Shown here: one piece after another, positions 13,642-42,993 of the stretch
Layout: the number at the start of each line of letters is the position of its first letter
How positions within the stretch are numbered: position 1 is the first letter of the stretch
Assembly: GCA_963746255.1 (NCBI GenBank)
Contig: CAVVAJ010000005.1
Span: forward strand, 301,346-365,345
Origin: an uncultured Chloroflexia bacterium
Lineage (GTDB): Bacteria; Chloroflexota; Anaerolineae; Anaerolineales; UBA4823
DNA length: 64,000 nt
Direction: 5' to 3'
Translations under genes and position numbers: made by a program
The notes under the pieces: generated by a model
Seen by the model: only the letters and a program-made list of their open reading frames with translations
What the model was told of the DNA's origin: nothing
The model's database searches: none

Positions 13642-13687
13642 TTCGGTATCTTATTTGATTACTGCTGTTCTTGAGAATATTTCTAGT

Positions 13688-13800
13688 CCTTTATCAAGGA
13701 TGAAAGTTTCATTCGATATCCGAGGAAATACGCCCTTGACAAAGCTTAATGTGTTCCGTCTGCACTCTATTCTTACCAAACAATCAAATTTGTTGGAAAC
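13688..13800 (+). repeat. Dispersed bipartite intergenic element, copy R1 (modules A+B)
   Basis: Module A is CCTTTATCAAGG..CCCTTGACAAAGC enclosing the palindrome GATGAAAGTTTCAT. Module B is GTGTTCCG...AACAATCAAATTTGTTGGAAAC. It lies 47 nt upstream of the polyprenyl synthase start. Confidence 0.7.
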
Positions 13801-13809
13801 CTAGATGGC

Positions 13810-14841
13810 TCAGAGAGTCTTAATCAATTCCAATGCTAAAAGAGCTTCTATATCCTTCACTCCGGCGGCAAACATCGCTACTTGTATTTCCCGTTCAATT
13901 TCTCTGATTGTCATGACTGTCTCTTCCACTGAGATAGCTGCAGCCTTTAGAAATGGCGAAGCCATCCCGCCGATGTTGGCTCCCAAAGCAATGCATTTCG
14001 CGATATCCACACCTGTTCTAACACCACCTGATGCAATTAAGGGAATATCTTGATCGACATTACGTACGTTTAGTACCGATTGGGCTGTGGGATTACCCCA
14101 ATCACGGAAAGCTGCTGCAAGTCGCGCTTGGCTGGGAGATTTTGCTCGATACATTTCCACCTGCGACCAGGAGGTACCACCGGCACCTGCGACATCGATC
14201 GCAGCTACTCCGGCATTTATCAAAGACTTTGCTGCCTGTTCTGATATCCCCCAACCAACCTCCTTAGCAATTACAGGCACTCCTATTATGTTACACACAT
14301 GCTCAATCTTTTGGATTATTCCAGAAAAATCTGTGTCTCCTTCAGGCTGTACTGCTTCTTGGAGCGCATTCAGATGTAAAATTAACCCATCTGCAGCGAC
14401 CATTTCTACCGCGCGTAAACATTCATCAACTCCATATCCGTAATTCAGCTGAATTACCCCCAAGTTAGCAAATAATAAGATATCAGGGGCGAATTTCCGG
14501 ATCTGAAAGGTTAGATCCAAGGACGAGTCCTCCAGTGCGGCTCTTTGTGAACCCACGCCCATTGCTATTCCTGCTTCCTGGGCAGCGGTGGCTAACCTTT
14601 GGTTTAACCGTTCAGCTTCATCGCTACCGCCGGTCATTGATGAGATCAAGATAGGGGCACGAAGGGTTTTCCCCAGAAATTTCGTTTTTAGATTCACCTG
14701 ATTGAGATTCAGTTCGGGAAGTGCCTGGTGTTCGAAACGATACTGCTCTAATCCAGATGTGATAGACGAACTGACATCCTCATCGAGATTGATCCTGATA
14801 TGTTCTATTTTTCGGGAGCTGGTTGGCGTAACTTTTTCCAT
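13810..14841 (-). CDS. fni: Isopentenyl-diphosphate delta-isomerase, type 2 (FMN-dependent)
   Basis: 343 aa with N-terminal RKIEHIRI and glycine-rich FMN-binding segments ([13 protein letters not shown]). Confidence 0.85.
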
Positions 14842-34952: not shown

Positions 34953-34983
34953 GCTGCAATTATTTTCTCTACGATGAACTACT

Positions 34984-35098
34984 GTTCCGTCAAATTTGAT
35001 TGTTTAGGTAGACAAGAGTGTAGACGGAACACTTTATGCTTTGTCAAGGGCGTCTACTTGGAAATTGCATGAACCTTTCATCCATGACAAAGCACTAG
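34984..35098 (-). repeat. Dispersed bipartite intergenic element, copy R2 (reverse orientation; B then A on + strand)
   Basis: GTTCCGTCAAATTTGATTGTTTAG...CGGAACAC followed by GCTTTGTCAAGG...CATGACAAAGCACTAG. It ends 40 nt upstream of the pentapeptide gene. Confidence 0.7.
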
Positions 35099-35137
35099 CT
35101 GTCGAAAAAAACTTGAAAACGACGGAGAGAAATCTAC

Positions 35138-35939: not shown

Positions 35940-36644
35940 TCAGTTCTGTGGTAAGGCTTCTTGAAGTTTTTTGACCACAGATAATGAGATCGGTTTGGTT
36001 TTGGCAGACTTCCTGATCAAGTCTTTTAATTTATTCAGGGGGATTGTTGCAGCAGGTAAGTCTTGCTCTTTATCGATCTCTATTACGGCTCCCGGATTGG
36101 TGAAGACTAATACGGTGGAGATTTGTGATAGGTCGTCGTCAGGTAGAATTTTTGCGAAATACTTTTCCAAGCTTTCGATATCGCCGAGCATTTCGAGATC
36201 AGGACGACCGAGTCCTTCTTGAGCAAAGATTTTTAGATAGGTCATTAACATCCCGCCCCCACGTTGCTTCCAACGTCCCTTATCGAAGGTAATCGTCCCG
36301 CGTTGATGTTTTGGAAAGATCGCCCAAATGCCTGCTGGTCCAACGAGTAGGTGAGAGCTTGGCGTTTTGTAATGATACATTGAGTATTGATCATCCAGAC
36401 CCTTCAGAGATTGATCAATCTGTTCATCAGGTCGGGGTCTTCGTCCCCAGCGATTACTGAAATAGATACCTATTTGGGATAAGATAAAACCGAGCAACAA
36501 AGCAACTAGTGATAAGTAAAAATGGTCGGGCATCTGGAAGGATACATACATGCCACCTGCCAGAACTGCTAAACCACCAATCATGGTTATCTGCGCGATA
36601 CGGCGATTGCGATTGATTTTATTTTCGTTAATAATGATTTTCAT
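35940..36644 (-). CDS. Membrane-anchored NERD-like domain protein
   Basis: Two N-terminal TM helices, then a segment (LLVGPAGIWAIFPKHQRGTITF) resembling the nuclease-related NERD domain. Confidence 0.45.
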   Translation of the reverse strand: MKIIINENKINRNRRIAQITMIGGLAVLAGGMYVSFQMPDHFYLSLVALLLGFILSQIGIYFSNRWGRRPRPDEQIDQSLKGLDDQYSMYHYKTPSSHLLVGPAGIWAIFPKHQRGTITFDKGRWKQRGGGMLMTYLKIFAQEGLGRPDLEMLGDIESLEKYFAKILPDDDLSQISTVLVFTNPGAVIEIDKEQDLPAATIPLNKLKDLIRKSAKTKPISLSVVKKLQEALPQN

Positions 36645-36653
36645 ATCTTAATT

Positions 36654-37913
36654 TCACTCCTGGAATCGCTTGAGCACCAAGCATGCATTTTGACCACCTA
36701 AGCCAAATGAATTTGAGAGTGCAGCATTGACACTCATATGGCGTGCTTCATTCGGCGTGTAATTGAGGTCGCAATCAGGATCAGGGTACTCATAGTTTAT
36801 TGTTGGGGGAATGATCGAATTTTGTATAGATAGTACTGTAGATATGGCTTCCAAAGTACCTGAAGCACCCATGGCATGACCGATCATAGATTTTGTCGAG
36901 CTGATGGATAAATTATAGGCATAGTCGAGAAATAGTAGTTTGATCGCCTTTGTCTCCACGGCATCATTTAAGGGTGTGGAGGTACCGTGGGCATTTATAT
37001 AATCTATGCCATCTATATTTATCCCTGCATCCTTGAGTGCCCATTTCATCGTGCGGACAGGGGCTTTCGCTTCAGGGTCAGGTGCTGCTATATGGAAGGC
37101 TTCTGAGGAGGCGGCATGCCCGGCAATTTCCGCATAAATACGGGCACCGCGTGCGCGTGCGTGATCAAGACTTTCCAATACCATTGCACCAGCACCTTCT
37201 GAGAAGATAAATCCCTCTCTTTTCGCGTCAAATGGGCGTGAAGCGGATTGCGGAGCATCGTTGTAGCTTGTTGGCAAGGCACGCATTGCTGAAAACCCGC
37301 CAATAGCGTAATCTTGGATAACCGCTTCTGTACCACCTGAAATCACCACATCTGCCACACCACGGCGGATGTATTCGCAACCCTCACCCAAGACCTGGGT
37401 CCCCGTTGCGCAGGCGGTGGAGATAGTAATATTCGGTCCAAAACAATGGAAACGCCGGGCAATTAAGAATGCTCCGATATTTGGAATTCCTGAAGGGAGG
37501 ACGAAAGGATTTACCCGGGACAGGCCCACGGTTCTGAGGAGCTTAATTCCGTCGTCGAAGCGTTCTAAACCGCCGATTGTTGTACCAAAAGCGACACCAA
37601 CTCGCTCAGCATTCGCCATTGTGTCTGGAAGTCCTGCATCGGCTACCGCTTGAGTAGCTGCGCCTAGCGCAAATTGTGCAGAGCGTGCAACGCGCCGTGC
37701 TTCTTTGCGTTCCATATAATCTTCAGGATCAAAATCGGGGACTTCTCCAGCGATTTGGCAGGGCATGTCACTGGCGTCAAATTGGGTAATTTTGCGCACA
37801 CCAGATTGTCCAGCAACCAATCCATCCCAGAATTGGCTGATCGAAGAACCCAAAGGAGTGATTGCACCTAAACCAGTGATGACAACTCTTGGACGAGAAT
37901 TATTATTTGACAT
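36654..37913 (-). CDS. fabF: 3-oxoacyl-ACP synthase II
   Basis: 419 aa with N-terminus RVVITGLGAITPLG, active-site Cys region ISTACATG, and the His/His motifs. Confidence 0.9.
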   Translation of the reverse strand: MSNNNSRPRVVITGLGAITPLGSSISQFWDGLVAGQSGVRKITQFDASDMPCQIAGEVPDFDPEDYMERKEARRVARSAQFALGAATQAVADAGLPDTMANAERVGVAFGTTIGGLERFDDGIKLLRTVGLSRVNPFVLPSGIPNIGAFLIARRFHCFGPNITISTACATGTQVLGEGCEYIRRGVADVVISGGTEAVIQDYAIGGFSAMRALPTSYNDAPQSASRPFDAKREGFIFSEGAGAMVLESLDHARARGARIYAEIAGHAASSEAFHIAAPDPEAKAPVRTMKWALKDAGINIDGIDYINAHGTSTPLNDAVETKAIKLLFLDYAYNLSISSTKSMIGHAMGASGTLEAISTVLSIQNSIIPPTINYEYPDPDCDLNYTPNEARHMSVNAALSNSFGLGGQNACLVLKRFQE

Positions 37914-37945
37914 TAATACTCCAATAAAAAGGGGAATCTCAGGTA

Positions 37946-38941
37946 TTACGCTAAAGCAGTCCTAATTGAGTCTTTTAAGGCAGTGAGCAGATCTGAATCT
38001 ACCGCTTGTCGGGCTACTCTAATTGCGTTGACTAACGCATGGGCATCAGAACGACCGTGACCTACAAAAACCAAACCATCGATGCCCAATAGAGGGGCAG
38101 CTCCGACTTCTCCGGGGTCCATTAATTTCCTAATGTTCCCAAAGGCAGGCTTTGCCAAGAGCGCTCCTATCTTCGTGATCAGGCTGCTGGTTAATTCTTC
38201 TTTGAGCATATCGGTGATCATCTTCGCGACCGCTTCACTTGTCTTCAGAAGCACATTGCCTGTGAATCCATCTGTGACGACCACGTCAGCTTGGCCGCCA
38301 AAAAGCTCTTTTCCTTCCACGTTCCCGATAAAATTCAATCCACTGTTTTGCAGCAGAGGGAACGTATGCTTTACCAAATCGTTGCCTTTGCCGGCTTCCT
38401 CACCATTTGATAGTAAACCGACCCGCGGATTTTGTTTTCTAAGGACTTTGTCGGTGTAAACCGCACCGAGATGTGCAAACTGTAATAGGTACTCTGGTTT
38501 ACAATCTGCATTTGCGCCGATATCCAATACAGCGCAATGTCCATTTTTAACCGGGAACAACCCAGTCAAGGCGGGGCGTTTAACCCCACGAATTCGTCCC
38601 AACCGGAATAAGGCATTCGCCATTGCTCCACCCGTGTTACCGGCAGTTACAAAAGCATCCGCTTCACCAGATTTTACCAGGTCCATACCAACAGCCATTG
38701 AGTTATCGCTTTTCCGGCGTGCATTCTCTGCTGGCTTGTCCGTCATGGCGACAATTTCAGATGCGTGCACGATCCTTATCTGCTGAAAATCTCCTGCTAC
38801 AGCATTCAGGCGGGCTGATATTTGCCCTTCATGACCGACTAAGGTGATCTCATCGCCAAATAATTTAACCGCCTCAACCGCAGCGTTGATTTCCGGTTCT
38901 GGATGGTTATCACTTCCCATGGCGTCCAAAACTATCTTCAT
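37946..38941 (-). CDS. plsX: Phosphate acyltransferase
   Basis: 331 aa with N-terminus MKIVLDAMGSDNHPEP typical of PlsX. Confidence 0.9.
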   Translation of the reverse strand: MKIVLDAMGSDNHPEPEINAAVEAVKLFGDEITLVGHEGQISARLNAVAGDFQQIRIVHASEIVAMTDKPAENARRKSDNSMAVGMDLVKSGEADAFVTAGNTGGAMANALFRLGRIRGVKRPALTGLFPVKNGHCAVLDIGANADCKPEYLLQFAHLGAVYTDKVLRKQNPRVGLLSNGEEAGKGNDLVKHTFPLLQNSGLNFIGNVEGKELFGGQADVVVTDGFTGNVLLKTSEAVAKMITDMLKEELTSSLITKIGALLAKPAFGNIRKLMDPGEVGAAPLLGIDGLVFVGHGRSDAHALVNAIRVARQAVDSDLLTALKDSIRTALA

Positions 38942-39036
38942 TGGATCTCCTTGTTCAGGATTTATTTTGAAAACTGAGTCACCACAGGGTGGAAACTTGA
39001 CACAGATGCAGGGCCGATTATAATACGGCTAAGCTT

Positions 39037-39118
39037 GCGCTGGTGCTGGAATTGGCAGACAGGCATGGTTGAGGGCCATGTGCCGCAAGGCGTGTGGGTT
39101 CAACTCCCACCCAGCGCA
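39037..39118 (+). tRNA. tRNA-Leu (anticodon GAG), type II with long variable arm
   Basis: Manual fold: acceptor GCGCTGG/CCAGCGC, anticodon stem CATGG/CCATG with loop TTGAGGG, T-arm GTGGG-TTCAACT-CCCAC; no encoded CCA. Confidence 0.8.
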
Positions 39119-39125
39119 TGAGTAG

Positions 39126-39155
39126 AGATATCAGCGTCCAATAGCGCTGATATCT
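39126..39155. other. 11-bp perfect hairpin (AGATATCAGCG / CGCTGATATCT) between tRNA-Leu and a convergent permease gene
   Basis: Seen directly. It is a possible bidirectional terminator, but the U-tract is weak. Confidence 0.5.
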
Positions 39156-39159
39156 TGCT

Positions 39160-40026
39160 TTAATCCTCAATTTTCATTCGCTTTTCAATATAGCGAACTC
39201 CAGCAGATAAAAGCAGGGTCATTGCGAGATAAAGGAAGACTACTACATTGAAAGTCTCAAAAACTCGAAAGGTGCTCGAGCGTCTTTTGCGGCTCAATTG
39301 AGTGAGTTCATTAACTGCCAGGACGGTTAATAGCGCCGAGTCTTTCAATAATGAGATGAAATCATTGCCTAGAGGGGGTAGGACTGCTCGAATTGCTTGT
39401 GGTAAGATGATAAGCCGCATAGCTTTAAAATAACTCATACCAAGCGATCGGGCGGCCTCCATCTGACCTCGACTGATTGCTTGTATGCCAGCTCTAAAAA
39501 CCTCTGCTTCATAAGCGCCATAGCCGATACCGAGTGCTAAGATCCCCCGAAACTCCATCGAGATATTACGAATTGTATATTCGGACAAATATAGAAATAA
39601 TTGTTCAAGCGCTGTCCCCGTCGAAGGATCTAAGCCCACATTACCCAGGTAATTCACGAATGTGATAAATAAGGGTACCACACCGAATGCGATATAAAGT
39701 ATCAGGACGATCATCGGAATACCGCGGATTACCTCCACATACAATGTGGCAATTGTGTAGACAAACGTGTTCTTCGATGTGCGTGCTATTCCGGTGAGCA
39801 AGCCGATGACTAGTGATAAGATATACGCAAAAAAAGTGATCCGGATGGTTGTTACAACACCGTCTTTCAGGAATATAAATGTATCTTGGTAGTTATCATT
39901 TGTGAGGATGAGGTAGGTGATAGCCAGTGCTGACACGAGAATCACGATTCCCCACCATGGGAGCTTGTTTAACTGCAATCGGTCAACGATACCTGGTCGT
40001 TCATCCATACTGCGGGTAGTTTCCAT
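39160..40026 (-). CDS. Polar amino-acid ABC transporter permease
   Basis: 288 aa multi-TM protein with the EAA loop EAARSLGMSYFKAMRLIILPQA. Confidence 0.85.
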   Translation of the reverse strand: METTRSMDERPGIVDRLQLNKLPWWGIVILVSALAITYLILTNDNYQDTFIFLKDGVVTTIRITFFAYILSLVIGLLTGIARTSKNTFVYTIATLYVEVIRGIPMIVLILYIAFGVVPLFITFVNYLGNVGLDPSTGTALEQLFLYLSEYTIRNISMEFRGILALGIGYGAYEAEVFRAGIQAISRGQMEAARSLGMSYFKAMRLIILPQAIRAVLPPLGNDFISLLKDSALLTVLAVNELTQLSRKRRSSTFRVFETFNVVVFLYLAMTLLLSAGVRYIEKRMKIED

Positions 40027-40193
40027 AATCCGGTTCCTAGGGCTTAGGTAATTTGGTTAATAATTCTATGGAAATATTTGTAATGAAAATATTATTGATT
40101 TAACCTATTTGTTGGATCTATTGATAAGGTGTGAGAGAGTGCTGTTGTAGGAGTCGCCGGGTGTGGGTTTCGGTATGCAGCACCGTATCGAGT

Positions 40194-40302
40194 GCTTTGT
40201 CAAGGATAAAAGTTTCGTTTGATAACTGAGTTAATAAGCCCCTGACAAAGCTTTAAGTGTTCCAACTAGACTCCATTCTATCTAAACAATCAAATTTAAA
40301 GG
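40194..40302 (+). repeat. Dispersed bipartite intergenic element, copy R3a (A+B)
   Basis: GCTTTGTCAAGG...CCTGACAAAGC followed by GTGTTCC...AAACAATCAAATTT...GGAATACTAG. Confidence 0.7.
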
Positions 40303-40311
40303 AATACTAGT

Positions 40312-40424
40312 GCTTTGTCAAGGATGAAAGTTTCATCGATATCCGGTAACTATACCTTTGACAAAGCTTTAAGTGTTCTGTCCGTGATCTATTTTTTAAA
40401 GAATCACATTTGAGGGAACACTAG
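40312..40424 (+). repeat. Dispersed bipartite intergenic element, copy R3b (A + degenerate B), in tandem with R3a
   Basis: GCTTTGTCAAGGATGAAAGTTTCATCG...CCTTTGACAAAGC followed by GTGTTCTGTCCG...AATCACATTTGAGGGAACACTAG. Confidence 0.7.
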
Positions 40425-40433
40425 TACACTTTT

Positions 40434-40463
40434 CCGGGATGGGAAAATTGTTTCCCATCCCGG
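40434..40463. terminator. 13-bp perfect stem-loop (CCGGGATGGGAAA / TTTCCCATCCCGG) just downstream of the triple-SBP gene
   Basis: Seen directly. It is the likely transcription terminator of the SBP gene, although the U-tract is poor. Confidence 0.5.
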
Positions 40464-40495
40464 AGTTAGTGATTTCGAGTAACTGGTGTTAAAAT

Positions 40496-42748
40496 CTACT
40501 GCACCAGTCCCCACATCAGATTGAGTTCTTCCAGCTTGCCATCCGCTTTCATCGAGAGCAAGGCGGCGTCAACCGCATCTCGCAGCTCGCTGCCTGGCGG
40601 GAAGACGAAACCGAGCTGTTCATCGGATGTGAGCTGTCCAATGATCTTGAGCTTGCCTTCATTCGCTTCCATAAAACCGAGCGCGGACACATTGTCAATC
40701 ACCACACCATCGATGTCATTGGCGAGCAGTGCTAGGATTGTGGCGGGGAAATCTTCAAAGGACTTGATGCGCTCGACCGGGAAGTACTCCTGGGCAACAA
40801 TCTCGTTGGTGGTCCCGATCTGTGTACCGATCAGCATATTGTCATCCGCGACGAAGTCATCAACCGTAGCGGTTTCATCGGTGCGCACCAGCAAGGTCTG
40901 TCCGATGGTGACATAGGGCACCGAGAAATCAACGATCTTGGCACGCTCTTCGGTGATGGTAACGCCATCTGCGAGCCAGTCATACTCGCCCGCTTCCATG
41001 GCTGGGAAAATGCCATCCCAGGCGGCTTCAACGAACAGCGGGACGCAGTTGATCCGGTTACAGATCTCACGGGCAGCGTCGTAGTCCCAACCGACGGGTT
41101 CCCCGCTGGCCTCATCAATCGAGTTGAAGGGCGGATAGGCGTTTTCCACTGCGACAGTGACTTCCATACCACCCAGGTCTGGTAGTTCTGCGGCTGGGGC
41201 TTCTTTGGTGATCAATCCCCAAGTCAGGTTGAGTTCTTCGAGTGTGCCATCCGCTTCCATGGCGAGCAAGGCGGCGTCAACTGCATCTCGCAGCTCGCTG
41301 CCTGGCGGGAAGACGAAACCGAGCTGTTCATCGGATGTGAGCTGTCCAATGATCTTGAGCTTGCCTTCATTCGCTTCCATAAAACCGAGCGCGGACACGT
41401 TGTCAATCACCACACCATCGATGTCATTGGCGAGCAGTGCTAGGATTGTGGCGGGGAAATCTTCAAAGGACTTGATGCGCTCGACCGGGAAGTATTCCTG
41501 GGCAACGATCTCGTTGGTGGTACCGATCTGAGTGCCGATCAGCATATTGTCATCCGCGACGAAGTCATCAACCGAAGCGGTCTCATCGACGCGCACCAAC
41601 AAGGTCTGTCCGATGGTGACGTAGGGTACCGAGAAATCAACGATCTTGGCACGCTCTTCGGTGATGGTAACGCCATCTGCGAGCCAGTCATACTCGCCCG
41701 CTTCCATGGCTGGGAAAATGCCATCCCAGGCGGCTTCAACGAACACTGGGACGCAGTTGATCCGATCACAGATCTCACGGGCAGCGTCGTAGTCCCAACC
41801 GACGGGTTCCCCGCTGGCTTCATCAATCGAGTTGAAGGGCGGATAGGCGTTTTCCACTGCGACAGTGACTTCCATACCACCCAGGTCTGGTAGTTCTGCG
41901 GCTGGGGCTTCTTTGGTGATCAATCCCCAAGTCAGGTTGAGTTCTTCGAGTGTGCCATCCGCTTCCATGGCGAGCAAGGCGGCGTCAACTGCATCTCGCA
42001 GCTCGCTGCCTGGCGGGAAGACGAAACCGAGCTGTTCATCGGATGTGAGCTGTCCAATGATCTTGAGCTTGCCTTCATTCGCTTCCATAAAACCGAGCGC
42101 GGACACATTGTCAATCACCACACCATCGATGTCATTGGCGAGCAGTGCTAGGATTGTGGCGGGGAAATCTTCAAAGGACTTGATGCGCTCGACCGGGAAG
42201 TATTCCTGGGCAACGATCTCGTTGGTGGTCCCGATCTGTGTACCGATCAGCATATTGTCATCCGCGACGAAGTCATCAACCGAAGCGGTCTCATCGACGC
42301 GCACCAACAAGGTCTGTCCGATGGTGACGTAGGGTACCGAGAAATCAACGATCTTGGCACGCTCTTCGGTGATGGTAACGCCATCTGCGAGCCAGTCATA
42401 CTCGCCCGCTTCCATGGCTGGGAAAATGCCATCCCAGGCGGCTTCAACGAACAGCGGGACGCAGTTGATCCGGTTACAGATCTCACGGGCAGCGTCGTAG
42501 TCCCAACCGACGGGTTCCCCGCTGGCCTCATCAATCGAGTTGAAGGGCGGATAGGCGTTTTCCACTGCGACAGTGACTTCCACACCCCCAAGATCTGGGA
42601 ATGCTCCGTGAGCTGGTTCCTCCGGTGTTTCTGGTTCTTCAGGCAATTGTTCTGGCGCAGTCGTTGGGGGAGGTGGTGCTTCCGTAGGTGTCGCAGATCC
42701 CCCACAACCTGAGACTGCAATCATAATCATGATTAATATGACTGCCAA
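40496..42748 (-). CDS. Lipoprotein with three tandem near-identical family-3 (polar amino acid) solute-binding domains
   Basis: 750 aa with signal/lipobox MAVILIMIMIAVSGCGG and a Pro/Glu-rich linker. A 236-aa SBP unit (LGGMEVTVAVENAYPPFNSIDEASGEPVGWDYDAAREIC...EELNLTWGLITKEAPAAELPD) is then repeated three times, and the DNA shows a 708-bp period. Confidence 0.85.
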   Translation of the reverse strand: MAVILIMIMIAVSGCGGSATPTEAPPPPTTAPEQLPEEPETPEEPAHGAFPDLGGVEVTVAVENAYPPFNSIDEASGEPVGWDYDAAREICNRINCVPLFVEAAWDGIFPAMEAGEYDWLADGVTITEERAKIVDFSVPYVTIGQTLLVRVDETASVDDFVADDNMLIGTQIGTTNEIVAQEYFPVERIKSFEDFPATILALLANDIDGVVIDNVSALGFMEANEGKLKIIGQLTSDEQLGFVFPPGSELRDAVDAALLAMEADGTLEELNLTWGLITKEAPAAELPDLGGMEVTVAVENAYPPFNSIDEASGEPVGWDYDAAREICDRINCVPVFVEAAWDGIFPAMEAGEYDWLADGVTITEERAKIVDFSVPYVTIGQTLLVRVDETASVDDFVADDNMLIGTQIGTTNEIVAQEYFPVERIKSFEDFPATILALLANDIDGVVIDNVSALGFMEANEGKLKIIGQLTSDEQLGFVFPPGSELRDAVDAALLAMEADGTLEELNLTWGLITKEAPAAELPDLGGMEVTVAVENAYPPFNSIDEASGEPVGWDYDAAREICNRINCVPLFVEAAWDGIFPAMEAGEYDWLADGVTITEERAKIVDFSVPYVTIGQTLLVRTDETATVDDFVADDNMLIGTQIGTTNEIVAQEYFPVERIKSFEDFPATILALLANDIDGVVIDNVSALGFMEANEGKLKIIGQLTSDEQLGFVFPPGSELRDAVDAALLSMKADGKLEELNLMWGLVQ
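40499..42622. repeat. Three tandem 708-bp direct repeats (>95% nt identity) inside the SBP gene
   Basis: The same nt strings recur at 40.55, 41.26 and 41.97 kb, and spurious antisense ORFs recur with a 708-bp offset (40831/41539/42247). Confidence 0.9.
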
Positions 42749-42993
42749 AAGTATAGCGAATTTTCAATTCCTCATTTTTCTCTCCTTGATATATTCGTTG
42801 GAATGAAATTATTGACCATTCTCAATGAACCGGTGCCGCAACCGGAACTAAAGAAGGTGCTCGCCGCCGCCTATATTAGAATAGACTAACTTACGAAATT
42901 TTGCAAGCTGATCCATGTATAATAATAGTCGTTAACCCAGAAAATGCATAGTATGACTGTATAAATTTATGGTTTTGTTACGCGAGGATTACT

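What the first reader, a model, noticed from the sequence alone, without database searches (positions are those of the whole stretch)
40496..42748. Three tandem, nearly identical copies of a complete amino-acid-binding domain in one lipoprotein gene
The SBP gene contains three consecutive 708-bp units that are >95% identical at the DNA level; the few substitutions include CNRINCVPLF versus CDRINCVPVF and LVRVDETAS versus LVRTDETAT. Each unit encodes a full family-3 solute-binding domain behind a single lipobox, and Pro/Glu-rich linkers join them. Such high nucleotide identity implies very recent amplification or ongoing gene conversion. It also creates a recombination-prone locus that can vary in copy number. 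A permease lies next to the gene, but no ABC ATPase is adjacent.
Basis: seen in the sequence. Interest (0 to 1): 0.65.

Follow-up and report, generated by a model that had tools for sequence, protein, structure and literature searches.

The report
Triplicated amino-acid-binding domain lipoprotein gene
An Anaerolineae-type (Chloroflexota) bacterium encodes a membrane-tethered nutrient receptor made of three almost identical amino-acid-binding modules, and relatives commonly carry two- or three-module versions whose copies are kept alike by recombination: a real and interesting variant of known tandem-receptor ABC importers, not a new kind of system.

Summary
ORF 40496-42748 (-) holds three in-frame 708-bp units, 94.8-98.2% identical in DNA. 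Each unit is a complete SBP_bac_3 domain. A Pro/Glu/Thr tether precedes them, 9-residue linkers join them, and a permease follows. No importer-type ATPase lies in the 64 kb.

The array is not a one-off. Of the 120 best homologues (Chloroflexota), 111 have two domains and 9 have three. Sibling domains average about 92% identity while orthologues fall to 45%. Positional orthology survives only between close relatives. One clean DNA case, L073/L074, shows concerted evolution.

Inside the window gene the differences are mosaic. The array edges are about 15 times more diverged than the core. Both junctions are identical over 287 bp. This points to an older duplication, later homogenisation, and a 2-to-3 unequal crossover.

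dN/dS is 0.09-0.17, and a syntenic three-domain orthologue has within-gene dS of 0.5-1.4. Both indicate that the copies are selected.

Most likely function: a beads-on-a-string receptor with several equivalent binding sites for a polar-amino-acid ABC importer.

Caveats:
- An in-frame TGA follows the ancestral start codon.
- Copy number cannot be checked against reads.
- No close strains were found.

Novelty: a new variant of a known kind.

The parts
42780..42787 (-). Shine-Dalgarno-like AAGGAGAG, 4 nt upstream of the ancestral ATG
   Evidence: Read directly from the sequence
42764..42775 (-). ATG AGG AAT TGA: the likely ancestral start codon, followed by an in-frame stop at codon 4. It is in frame with the rest of the ORF. 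Read through, the N-terminus would be MRN*KFAILLAVILIMIMIAVSGC.
   Evidence: TGA is a normal stop in this window (14 of 34 long ORFs). The syntenic orthologue L087 starts MKKLNYLIALLVIAVFILVSC.
42704..42748 (-). The remaining hydrophobic signal-peptide core and lipobox (L/M)AVILIMIMIAVSG-C, read from the first in-frame TTG. The NCBI gene call starts at MIMIAVSGC.
42599..42703 (-). 35-residue Pro/Glu/Thr/Ala-rich tether: GGSATPTEAPPPPTTAPEQLPEEPETPEEPAHGAF
   Evidence: Composition is P10 E7 T5 A5. AF2 pLDDT is below 50 for residues 1-48.
41891..42598 (-). Repeat unit 1 (708 nt): SBP_bac_3 domain plus the linker TKEAPAAEL (41891-41917)
41183..41890 (-). Repeat unit 2 (708 nt): SBP_bac_3 domain plus the linker TKEAPAAEL (41183-41209). 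It is a chimera. Its 5' end and the preceding linker match unit 3. Its 3' part and the following linker match unit 1.
40496..41182 (-). Repeat unit 3 (684 nt plus TAG): SBP_bac_3 domain. The core is near-identical to units 1 and 2. In the last 79 nt, 18 positions differ.
40434..40463 (-). Hairpin CCGGGATGGGAAA-CAA-TTTTCCCATCCCGG, 33 nt after the stop codon. No T-run follows it, and the terminator scan did not call it.
40193..40424 (-). Two abutting copies (40307-40424 and 40193-40310, sharing a CTAG) of a 118-nt dispersed repeat. They lengthen the spacer between the binding-protein and permease genes to 470 bp.
   Evidence: Relatives have spacers of about 0-130 bp.
39160..40026 (-). ABC importer permease (BPD_transp_1, 288 aa), the presumed partner of the binding protein
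   Evidence: The binding protein followed by a permease is conserved in nearly all 80 related loci.

Best explanation
The gene encodes the extracytoplasmic receptor of a polar-amino-acid (PAAT-type) ABC importer. The host is an Anaerolineae-class Chloroflexota bacterium.

Architecture: a signal peptide with a lipobox, a flexible Pro/Glu/Thr tether, then three independently folded and functionally equivalent substrate-binding domains. The domains are strung together by 9-residue linkers.

How it arose (inferred): an older two-domain gene had its copies repeatedly homogenised by gene conversion or unequal crossing-over. One unequal crossover then added a chimeric middle unit, taking it from two copies to three.

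How it works (inferred): each domain binds the same amino acid and delivers it to the downstream permease dimer, powered by an ATPase encoded elsewhere. Several identical sites on one anchor raise the receptor number and local concentration per translocator. Copy number therefore acts as a recombination-adjustable dosage knob.

The same design, with one to three copies and siblings kept alike, recurs throughout the homologous family in Chloroflexota.
For: Shown by tool results:

Domain identity and fold
- Three SBP_bac_3 matches.
- AF2 gives three folded domains with pLDDT about 90. The N-terminus and the linkers are disordered and pTM is 0.40, so no fixed inter-domain packing is predicted.
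- Single domains superpose on GlnBP, ArtJ and ArgBP with TM 0.85-0.92. The best multi-domain match is the GlnPQ SBD1-SBD2 tandem, 6h30.
- The closest solved sequences are Arg/Gln-type binders, E 1e-33 to 1e-26.

Equivalence of the three domains
- All 43 family-invariant residues are present in all three units.
- Only 11 amino-acid positions vary, and none is an invariant column.

Selection on all copies
- dS is 0.066-0.128 and dN is 0.006-0.019.
- The syntenic orthologue L087 (three domains, then permease, PlsX and FabF) has kept three domains at within-gene dS 0.48-1.43 with dN 0.03-0.06.

Recombination inside this gene
- The 'odd-one-out' labels along the unit form 7 runs (p=2e-5; interior sites only, p=0.03).
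- The 3' edge has 18 differences in 79 nt against 9 in 592 nt of core.
- Both junctions are identical over 287 bp.

Family-wide pattern
- 111 two-domain and 9 three-domain proteins among the best 120 hits.
- Sibling identity averages about 92% whatever the divergence between orthologues. Positional-orthology sites exceed the control only above roughly 80% identity.
- L073/L074 share the junction WFLGA-EA-LPDLMG. They have 18 species-specific sites common to both domains, 0 positional sites and 1 cross site. dS is 0.03 and 0.07 within genes, 0.11-0.125 between species, and 0.34 in the flanking permease.
- L086 carries three copies at 99.0-99.9% nt identity on a 1.41-Mb contig.

Gene neighbourhood
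- The binding protein followed by a permease is conserved.
Against: - An in-frame TGA at codon 4 separates the good SD+ATG from the signal peptide, and TGA is a normal stop here. The gene may be poorly exported, recently inactivated, or carry a base error.
- No ATPase partner lies in the 64 kb.
- The ligand, the docking of each domain and any dosage benefit are all inferred and untested.
- The three-copy count rests on one assembly. The exact repeats of 247-287 bp are long enough to mislead a short-read assembler.
- Some lineages show no homogenisation. L028/L033 have clear positional orthology and within-gene dS of 0.8-1.0. Conversion is therefore episodic, and part of the family pattern could come from repeated fresh duplications.
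- The top-120 protein list is biased towards multi-domain hits, because the query itself has three domains.
Confidence: 0.7

Rival explanations
1. Assembly artefact. The true locus has a different number of units (for example two), and the third unit reflects mis-joined strain variants or repeat mis-resolution.
For: Exact repeats of 287 bp and 247 bp link the units. Related short-read contigs often break inside this repeat: L001, L005, L031 and L032, and L083-L085. No reads were available, and the exact protein occurs on only one long contig.
Against: Each unit carries private variants that are mostly synonymous or conservative (10 synonymous to 3 non-synonymous for u1/u2). That is evolutionary signal, not consensus error. 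The linker-to-domain junction is distinct from the tether-to-domain junction, so at least two units must be real. Three-domain genes exist elsewhere with copies too diverged to be mis-assembled (L087 and L069, 82-89% nt). They also exist on a 1.41-Mb contig (L086).
Confidence: 0.1
2. A one-off, recent and selectively neutral tandem amplification. There has been no gene conversion, the extra copies have no functional role, and they are transient.
For: The DNA identity is high. No close strain was available to show that the array persists.
Against: Divergence is strongly non-uniform: about 23% at the 3' edge against 1.5% in the core. The differences are mosaic. dN/dS of 0.09-0.17 shows that differences accumulated under purifying selection. 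The syntenic orthologue has kept three copies to dS above 1. Two or three copies are common across the family.
Confidence: 0.12
3. GlnPQ-like division of labour. The three domains are diverging towards different ligands or affinities, which would broaden the specificity of one transporter.
For: The closest structural analogue of the multi-domain arrangement is the GlnPQ SBD1-SBD2 tandem. In that system, according to the literature, the two domains differ in specificity (PMC8025302).
Against: Only 11 of 228 positions vary among the units. All 43 family-invariant positions are identical, including the GxTxT..R motif and Asp163. Five of the variable positions lie in the C-terminal helix next to the linker or the stop codon. 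Homogenisation works against divergence.
Confidence: 0.05
4. The gene is a recent pseudogene. The nonsense codon at position 4 abolishes proper export, so the array is a relic without current function.
For: ATG AGG AAT TGA follows a strong SD. TGA is used as a stop here. The downstream TTG and ATG starts leave a signal peptide with no positively charged n-region. Two copies of a dispersed repeat have also been inserted between the binding-protein and permease genes.
Against: The 750-codon frame is otherwise intact, with no frameshifts or internal stops. The differences between copies still show purifying selection. Re-initiation at the TTG 15 nt after the stop is plausible. A single base error cannot be excluded.
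Confidence: 0.15

Closest known systems
GlnPQ of Lactococcus lactis and other Firmicutes (PAAT-family ABC importer with tandem SBD1-SBD2; PDB 6h30)
   Same: Two or more SBP_bac_3-type domains sit in one polypeptide, joined by short flexible linkers, and serve a type I amino-acid importer. It is the best structural match to the model and also matches by sequence (6h30_A, E 3e-18, two stretches).
   Different: In GlnPQ the domains are fused to the transmembrane domain and differ in ligand specificity and affinity (PMC8025302). Here the domains form a separate lipoprotein-type gene that ends in TAG, 470 bp before the permease. There are three domains, 96-99% identical, with identical conserved residues.
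Single-domain lipid-anchored or periplasmic polar-amino-acid binding proteins (GlnH/GlnBP, ArtJ, ArgBP, HisJ/LAO; Pfam SBP_bac_3)
   Same: Each unit is a full member of this family by sequence (PDB hits at E 1e-33 to 1e-19) and by fold (TM 0.85-0.92). A BPD_transp_1 permease follows. Single-domain orthologues exist on long contigs (L006, L011).
   Different: There are three copies in one chain. No cognate ATPase is in the operon.
Bacterial surface proteins with long, DNA-identical tandem repeats and variable copy number (for example alpha C/Rib-type repeats of streptococci). This comparison is from my own knowledge and was not tested here.
   Same: In-frame head-to-tail repeats are kept near-identical by recombination. 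Copy number differs between lineages, and the edges of the array are more diverged than the interior.
   Different: Those repeats are small structural or antigenic modules. Here each 236-residue repeat is a complete ligand-binding receptor of a transporter.
Tandem Venus-flytrap sensor domains of BvgS/EvgS (PDB 4q0c, 9ilw)
   Same: Consecutive type II binding-protein folds in one extracytoplasmic chain (ranks 3-4).
   Different: Those domains are diverged, packed against each other, and coupled to a histidine kinase. The match here is 15-17% identity with no kinase and no packing predicted (pTM 0.40).

Membership tests
PAAT-family ABC importer substrate-binding protein (Pfam SBP_bac_3, type II binding-protein fold) | Sequence match to SBP_bac_3 above the curated threshold | tested here: met
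   340.9 bits against a cut-off of 26.4, in three stretches
PAAT-family ABC importer substrate-binding protein (Pfam SBP_bac_3, type II binding-protein fold) | Two-lobed alpha/beta fold with a hinge | tested here: met
   AF2 gives pLDDT about 90 for each domain. Foldseek TM is 0.85-0.92 to GlnBP, ArtJ and ArgBP structures.
PAAT-family ABC importer substrate-binding protein (Pfam SBP_bac_3, type II binding-protein fold) | Residues that hold the alpha-carboxylate and alpha-ammonium groups of an amino acid (Thr/Arg of the GxTxT..R motif; Asp of lobe 2) | tested here: inconclusive
   G73, T75, R80 and D163 are invariant in the family alignment and present in all three units. Their equivalence to GlnBP G68/T70/R75/D157 comes from my recollection of the GlnBP sequence, not from a tool result.
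PAAT-family ABC importer substrate-binding protein (Pfam SBP_bac_3, type II binding-protein fold) | Cognate permease and ABC ATPase genes | tested here: inconclusive
   The permease is adjacent. No importer-type ATPase lies in the 64 kb. Distant relatives have the binding protein, permease and ATPase together, whereas the closest clade mostly lacks the ATPase as well.
PAAT-family ABC importer substrate-binding protein (Pfam SBP_bac_3, type II binding-protein fold) | Export signal with a lipobox for membrane anchoring | tested here: inconclusive
   The lipobox AVSG-C and the hydrophobic core are present, but an in-frame TGA cuts off the charged n-region.
PAAT-family ABC importer substrate-binding protein (Pfam SBP_bac_3, type II binding-protein fold) | Binds an amino acid and stimulates transport | not testable with these tools
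   Needs biochemistry
GlnPQ-type tandem-SBD importers | Two or more substrate-binding domains in one polypeptide | tested here: met
   Three domains
GlnPQ-type tandem-SBD importers | Substrate-binding domains covalently fused to the transmembrane domain | tested here: not met
   The ORF ends in TAG at 40496. The permease is a separate ORF 470 bp downstream.
GlnPQ-type tandem-SBD importers | Domains with different specificity or affinity | tested here: not met
   By sequence proxy only: 96-99% identity and identical conserved residues. Binding was not measured.
Tandem repeats under concerted evolution | Repeats within a gene are more alike than orthologous repeats between species, although the duplication is shared | tested here: met
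   Family level. L073/L074 share a junction and have 18 concerted, 0 positional and 1 cross site. Window against 12 relatives: 48-75 concerted sites, 0 positional, 0-1 cross.
Tandem repeats under concerted evolution | Mosaic or edge-effect pattern of differences inside the array | tested here: met
   Runs test p=2e-5, or 0.03 for interior sites only. The 3' edge has 18/79 differences against 9/592 in the core.
Tandem repeats under concerted evolution | Copy-number polymorphism among strains of one species | not testable with these tools
   No relative closer than about 73-79% was found. Between species, copy number is 1, 2 or 3.

The most novel reading that the evidence does not exclude
Chloroflexota of the Anaerolineae type use a distinct way of organising ABC-importer receptors. 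They concatenate whole binding proteins on one anchor. Some are homo-tandems, whose copy number (1-3) is tuned by unequal crossover and whose copies are kept identical by gene conversion under selection for receptor dosage. Others are hetero-tandems that join different binding-protein families (SBP_bac_1, SBP_bac_5, Phosphonate-bd or Peripla_BP_6 with SBP_bac_3). The window gene would be one snapshot of this dynamic. It would also supply a natural 1x/2x/3x series for testing how the number of tethered receptors sets transport rate.
Probability: 0.3. Interest if true: 0.6.

Novelty: new variant of a known kind. Interest (0 to 1): 0.45.

Why it matters
Tandem substrate-binding domains are known from GlnPQ-type importers, where the domains differ from each other and are fused to the membrane subunit. 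This locus differs in two respects. The receptor is a separate, tethered protein. It also carries two or three equivalent domains that are kept alike by recombination across a whole bacterial group.

That offers three things:
- A natural series (1, 2 or 3 identical domains) for testing how receptor number per translocator affects uptake.
- A clear prokaryotic example of concerted evolution acting on a complete functional domain.
- A practical warning. Short-read assemblies break or may collapse at these genes, so domain counts in metagenome-assembled genomes are unreliable.

Tried and rejected
- Tandem Repeats Finder returned nothing, because the 708-nt period exceeds its 500-nt limit. The repeat finder and my own offset comparison were used instead.
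- An Rfam search of 38.9-43.6 kb found only tRNA-Leu. Nothing matched the intergenic repeat.
- An exact look-up of the NCBI protein P0001 found no contig on record. Its cluster has a single unnamed member. PlsX located only a 1.8-kb Logan contig without DNA. The source organism is therefore known only as Anaerolineae-like, from the names of its homologues.
- The metagenome scan for close relatives gave 5 loci. The best was 79% identical and partial, so strain-level copy-number variation could not be tested.
- Five literature searches found nothing on lipid-anchored homo-tandem binding domains or their concerted evolution. They returned only GlnPQ papers. Absence from the held library is not proof of novelty.
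- An alternative genetic code (TGA as a sense codon) was rejected, because TGA ends 14 of 34 long ORFs.
- 'A single ancient duplication without conversion' was rejected. Concerted sites outnumber positional sites by 10 to 400 times once orthologues fall below 90% identity.
- 'Only independent recent duplications' was rejected. Positional sites exceed the cross-pattern control among close relatives: 419 against 17 in the 90-100% bin and 955 against 338 in the 80-90% bin. L073 and L074 also share a junction.
- An intrinsic terminator after the gene was not supported. The hairpin at 40434-40463 has no T-run.
Full report
**1. The observation**

The region 40496-42748 is one open reading frame on the minus strand, 750 codons from a TTG. 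The repeat finder reports three copies with spacing of 708 and 708 nt. Tandem Repeats Finder was silent only because its longest period is 500.

My own register-by-register comparison gave these differences:

| Pair | Differences | Identity |
|---|---|---|
| u1/u2 | 13 of 708 nt | 98.2% |
| u1/u3 | 31 of 687 nt | 95.5% |
| u2/u3 | 36 of 687 nt | 94.8% |

Over the 227-codon domain cores the identities are 98.1, 96.6 and 95.9%.

The unit coordinates, checked by translation, are 42598-41891, 41890-41183 and 41182-40496. Units 1 and 2 each end in an identical 27-nt linker that encodes TKEAPAAEL.

**2. What each unit is**

- Pfam finds three SBP_bac_3 stretches (340.9 bits).
- The nearest solved sequences are arginine/glutamine-type binding proteins: AncCDT-1, AncQR, Thermotoga ArgBP, ArtJ and GlnBP, at E 1e-33 to 1e-19.
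- An AlphaFold2 model of the whole protein has three confidently folded domains (pLDDT about 90).
- In that model, residues 1-48 are disordered and confidence is low at 279-284 and 515-520. pTM is 0.40, so no fixed inter-domain arrangement is predicted.
- Foldseek puts the GlnPQ SBD1-SBD2 tandem (6h30) first. Single binding proteins follow at TM 0.85-0.92.
- All 43 columns that are invariant in an alignment of 22 family domains are conserved in all three units.
- Only 11 amino-acid positions vary among the units, and none is an invariant column.

By sequence, therefore, the three binding sites are equivalent.

**3. The surroundings**

- Downstream lies a 288-aa BPD_transp_1 permease at 39160-40026.
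- Next comes tRNA-Leu(GAG) on the other strand, then plsX and fabF.
- The only ABC ATPase in the 64 kb is a 592-aa exporter-type protein.
- In 80 related loci the binding protein is almost always followed by a permease.
- Distant clades add an ATPase. Most of the closest relatives do not: L001-L003, L005-L009, L011 and L013-L015.

The missing ATPase is therefore a conserved trait, not an oddity of this locus.

The spacer between the binding-protein and permease genes is 470 bp here, against roughly 0-130 bp in relatives. It holds a hairpin and two abutting copies of a 118-nt dispersed repeat.

Upstream, a strong SD and an ATG are followed by an in-frame TGA at codon 4 (MRN*KFAILLAVILIMIMIAVSGC). 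TGA is an ordinary stop in this window. The syntenic orthologue begins MKKLNYLIALLVIAVFILVSC, which marks the upstream ATG as the ancestral start. This is either a real nonsense mutation, with possible re-initiation at the TTG, or a base error.

**4. Relatives**

A search with the whole protein gave 1045 hits. The names attached to them are all Chloroflexota, mostly Anaerolineae.

- All of the best 120 carry several domains: 111 have two and 9 have three.
- Within a protein the domains are mostly 85-100% identical.
- The proteins themselves are only 44-71% identical to the query.

This list is biased towards multi-domain hits, because the query has three domains. I therefore also scanned species-representative genomes with a single-domain profile. 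Among those 80 loci:

- About a third have two or three domains.
- Others are truly single-domain on megabase contigs (L006, L011).
- Several contigs break inside the repeat (L001, L005, L031, L032).

Near-identical arrays are therefore probably under-counted in short-read assemblies.

**5. Concerted evolution in the family**

I compared all pairs among 131 two-domain proteins.

- Within-protein identity stays near 92% whether the two proteins are 45% or 95% identical to each other.
- Both proteins' sibling domains are more alike than any between-protein pair in 85-100% of comparisons below 90% identity.

I then counted three site patterns in each quartet of domains. 'Concerted' means both domains of one protein differ from both domains of the other. 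'Positional' means domain 1 matches domain 1 and domain 2 matches domain 2. 'Cross' is the homoplasy control.

| Between-protein identity | Concerted | Positional | Cross |
|---|---|---|---|
| 90-100% | 4.4 | 9.3 | 0.4 |
| 80-90% | 17.5 | 1.45 | 0.5 |
| below 70% | 60-91 | 0.2 | 0.2 |

Values are sites per quartet. The quartets are not independent of each other.

The duplication is older than the splits between close relatives, yet the positional signal is erased with time.

One clean DNA case is L073/L074, two Phototrophicaceae chromosomes:

- They share the same junction, WFLGA-EA-LPDLMG.
- They have 18 species-specific sites shared by both domains (10 at third codon positions), 0 positional sites and 1 cross site.
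- dS is 0.03 and 0.07 within genes, 0.11-0.125 between species, and 0.34 in the flanking permease.

Homogenisation is not universal. L028/L033 show plain positional orthology, with within-gene dS of 0.8-1.0. Across loci, within-gene dS runs from 0.03 to about 2.

**6. History of the window gene**

The differences among the three units are not scattered.

- Labelling each variable codon by the unit that is the odd one out gives 1111 2222 333333 222 33 2 333333333. That is 7 runs (p=2e-5; interior sites only, p=0.03).
- Unit 3 differs from unit 1 at 9 of 592 core positions but at 18 of the last 79.
- Unit 1 has 4 private differences in its first 16 nt.

Diverged edges around a homogenised core mean the copies do not share one age. 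An older duplication was followed by homogenisation of the interior.

The two junctions are identical over 287 bp. Unit 2 matches unit 3 at its 5' end and unit 1 over its 3' part. That is the product expected from one unequal crossover in a two-unit gene (inference).

The copies differ mainly at synonymous sites: dS 0.066-0.128, dN 0.006-0.019, dN/dS 0.09-0.17. This argues both for real evolutionary differences and for selection on every copy.

**7. Is the three-copy state functional or transient?**

- L087 is the syntenic orthologue: three domains, then permease, PlsX and FabF. Its PlsX is 64% identical to the window's.
- Its three domains are now dS 0.48-1.43 apart but only dN 0.03-0.06. In that lineage the three-domain protein has been maintained for a long time.
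- L086 has three copies at 99.0-99.9% nt identity on a 1.41-Mb contig.
- Between the window and L087, all nine domain pairs have dN 0.22-0.24, with no positional signal.

**8. Mechanism proposed**

Shown:
- three equivalent, independently folded amino-acid-binding domains on a flexible tether;
- a cognate permease next door;
- recombination between the copies;
- purifying selection on each copy.

Inferred:
- the domains each capture the same polar amino acid and dock on the permease dimer;
- the energy comes from an ATPase encoded elsewhere;
- several sites per anchor raise receptor dosage near the translocator;
- unequal crossover changes copy number, while conversion keeps the copies alike.

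**9. Comparison with what is known**

The locus works like the tandem-domain importer GlnPQ, but it fails two of that family's defining features. The domains are not fused to the membrane subunit, and they are not differentiated (PMC8025302).

Each unit is an ordinary member of the SBP_bac_3 family. The repeat dynamics resemble those of surface proteins with identical tandem repeats (my own knowledge, not tested here).

Five literature searches found no description of lipid-anchored homo-tandem binding domains or of their concerted evolution.

**10. Verdict**

It should be widened from 'a recent amplification in one gene' to 'one instance of a family-wide, recombination-maintained multi-domain receptor design in Chloroflexota'.

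It is a new variant of a known kind, of moderate interest.

Main uncertainties:
- the copy number in the absence of reads;
- the in-frame stop at the start of the gene;
- the untested function.

Noticed in passing
window 42764-42775 (-): The likely ancestral start (SD AAGGAGAG, 4 nt, then ATG) is followed by an in-frame TGA at codon 4, ahead of an otherwise canonical lipoprotein signal (MRN*KFAILLAVILIMIMIAVSGC). TGA is a normal stop in this window. This is either a nonsense mutation with possible re-initiation at the TTG at 42748, or a base error.
   Followed up: partly
window 40307-40424 and 40193-40310 (-); also about 13660-13810 (-) and 34970-35120 (+): A dispersed intergenic repeat of about 118 nt has four copies in the 64 kb. 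The two copies between the binding-protein and permease genes abut and share a CTAG. The element folds into two hairpins (-33.8 kcal/mol, z -4.9), contains a TTGACA hexamer and has no Rfam match. It could be a MITE/REP-like element or a small RNA.
   Followed up: partly
L002:8591-10684, L056:9833-11725, L045:2772-4532, L068:9749-12289, L046:1262-3703: Relatives carry hetero-tandem fusions of whole binding proteins from different families in one ORF: SBP_bac_1+SBP_bac_3, SBP_bac_3+Phosphonate-bd (two loci), SBP_bac_3+SBP_bac_5, and Peripla_BP_6+2xSBP_bac_3. Concatenating receptors therefore seems to be a general habit in this group.
   Followed up: partly
L001, L005, L031, L032 (contig starts); L083-L085 (contig ends): Short-read contigs repeatedly begin or end inside the repeated domain. 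Single-domain gene calls in short-read MAGs may therefore be collapsed arrays, and multi-domain versions are probably under-counted.
   Followed up: partly
L042:8270-10717: On a 3.56-Mb long-read contig the homologous multi-domain gene is split into four overlapping frames. This is either frameshift errors in the assembly or a decaying array.
   Followed up: no
L086:4001-6190, L073 and L074 gene starts, P0031, P0047, P0048: Some multi-domain family members have a plain signal peptide (for example ...LMLGAQ|ELPDL and ...PFAAADGHLPDL). They lack both a lipobox cysteine and a Pro-rich tether. How they stay at the cell surface is unclear.
   Followed up: no
window 38997-39024 (+) and 39036-39119 (+): A perfect sigma-70 consensus (TTGACA, 16 nt, TATAAT; 12 of 12 matches) lies directly upstream of tRNA-Leu(GAG). 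The tRNA sits between the permease and plsX, on the opposite strand.
   Followed up: no
L087 (JGI 3300028840, Ga0309773_1000081) compared with window 35940-42748: The gene order three-domain binding protein, permease, plsX, fabF, then a gene of about 230 aa is conserved with a relative whose PlsX is only 64% identical. The locus is therefore old and stable, even though the repeats turn over.
   Followed up: yes
window 47227-49494 (-), 43506-44753 (+), 35940-36644 (-): Three sizeable ORFs (755, 415 and 234 aa) have no Pfam match. The 415-aa one has long Pro/Thr-rich stretches.
   Followed up: no
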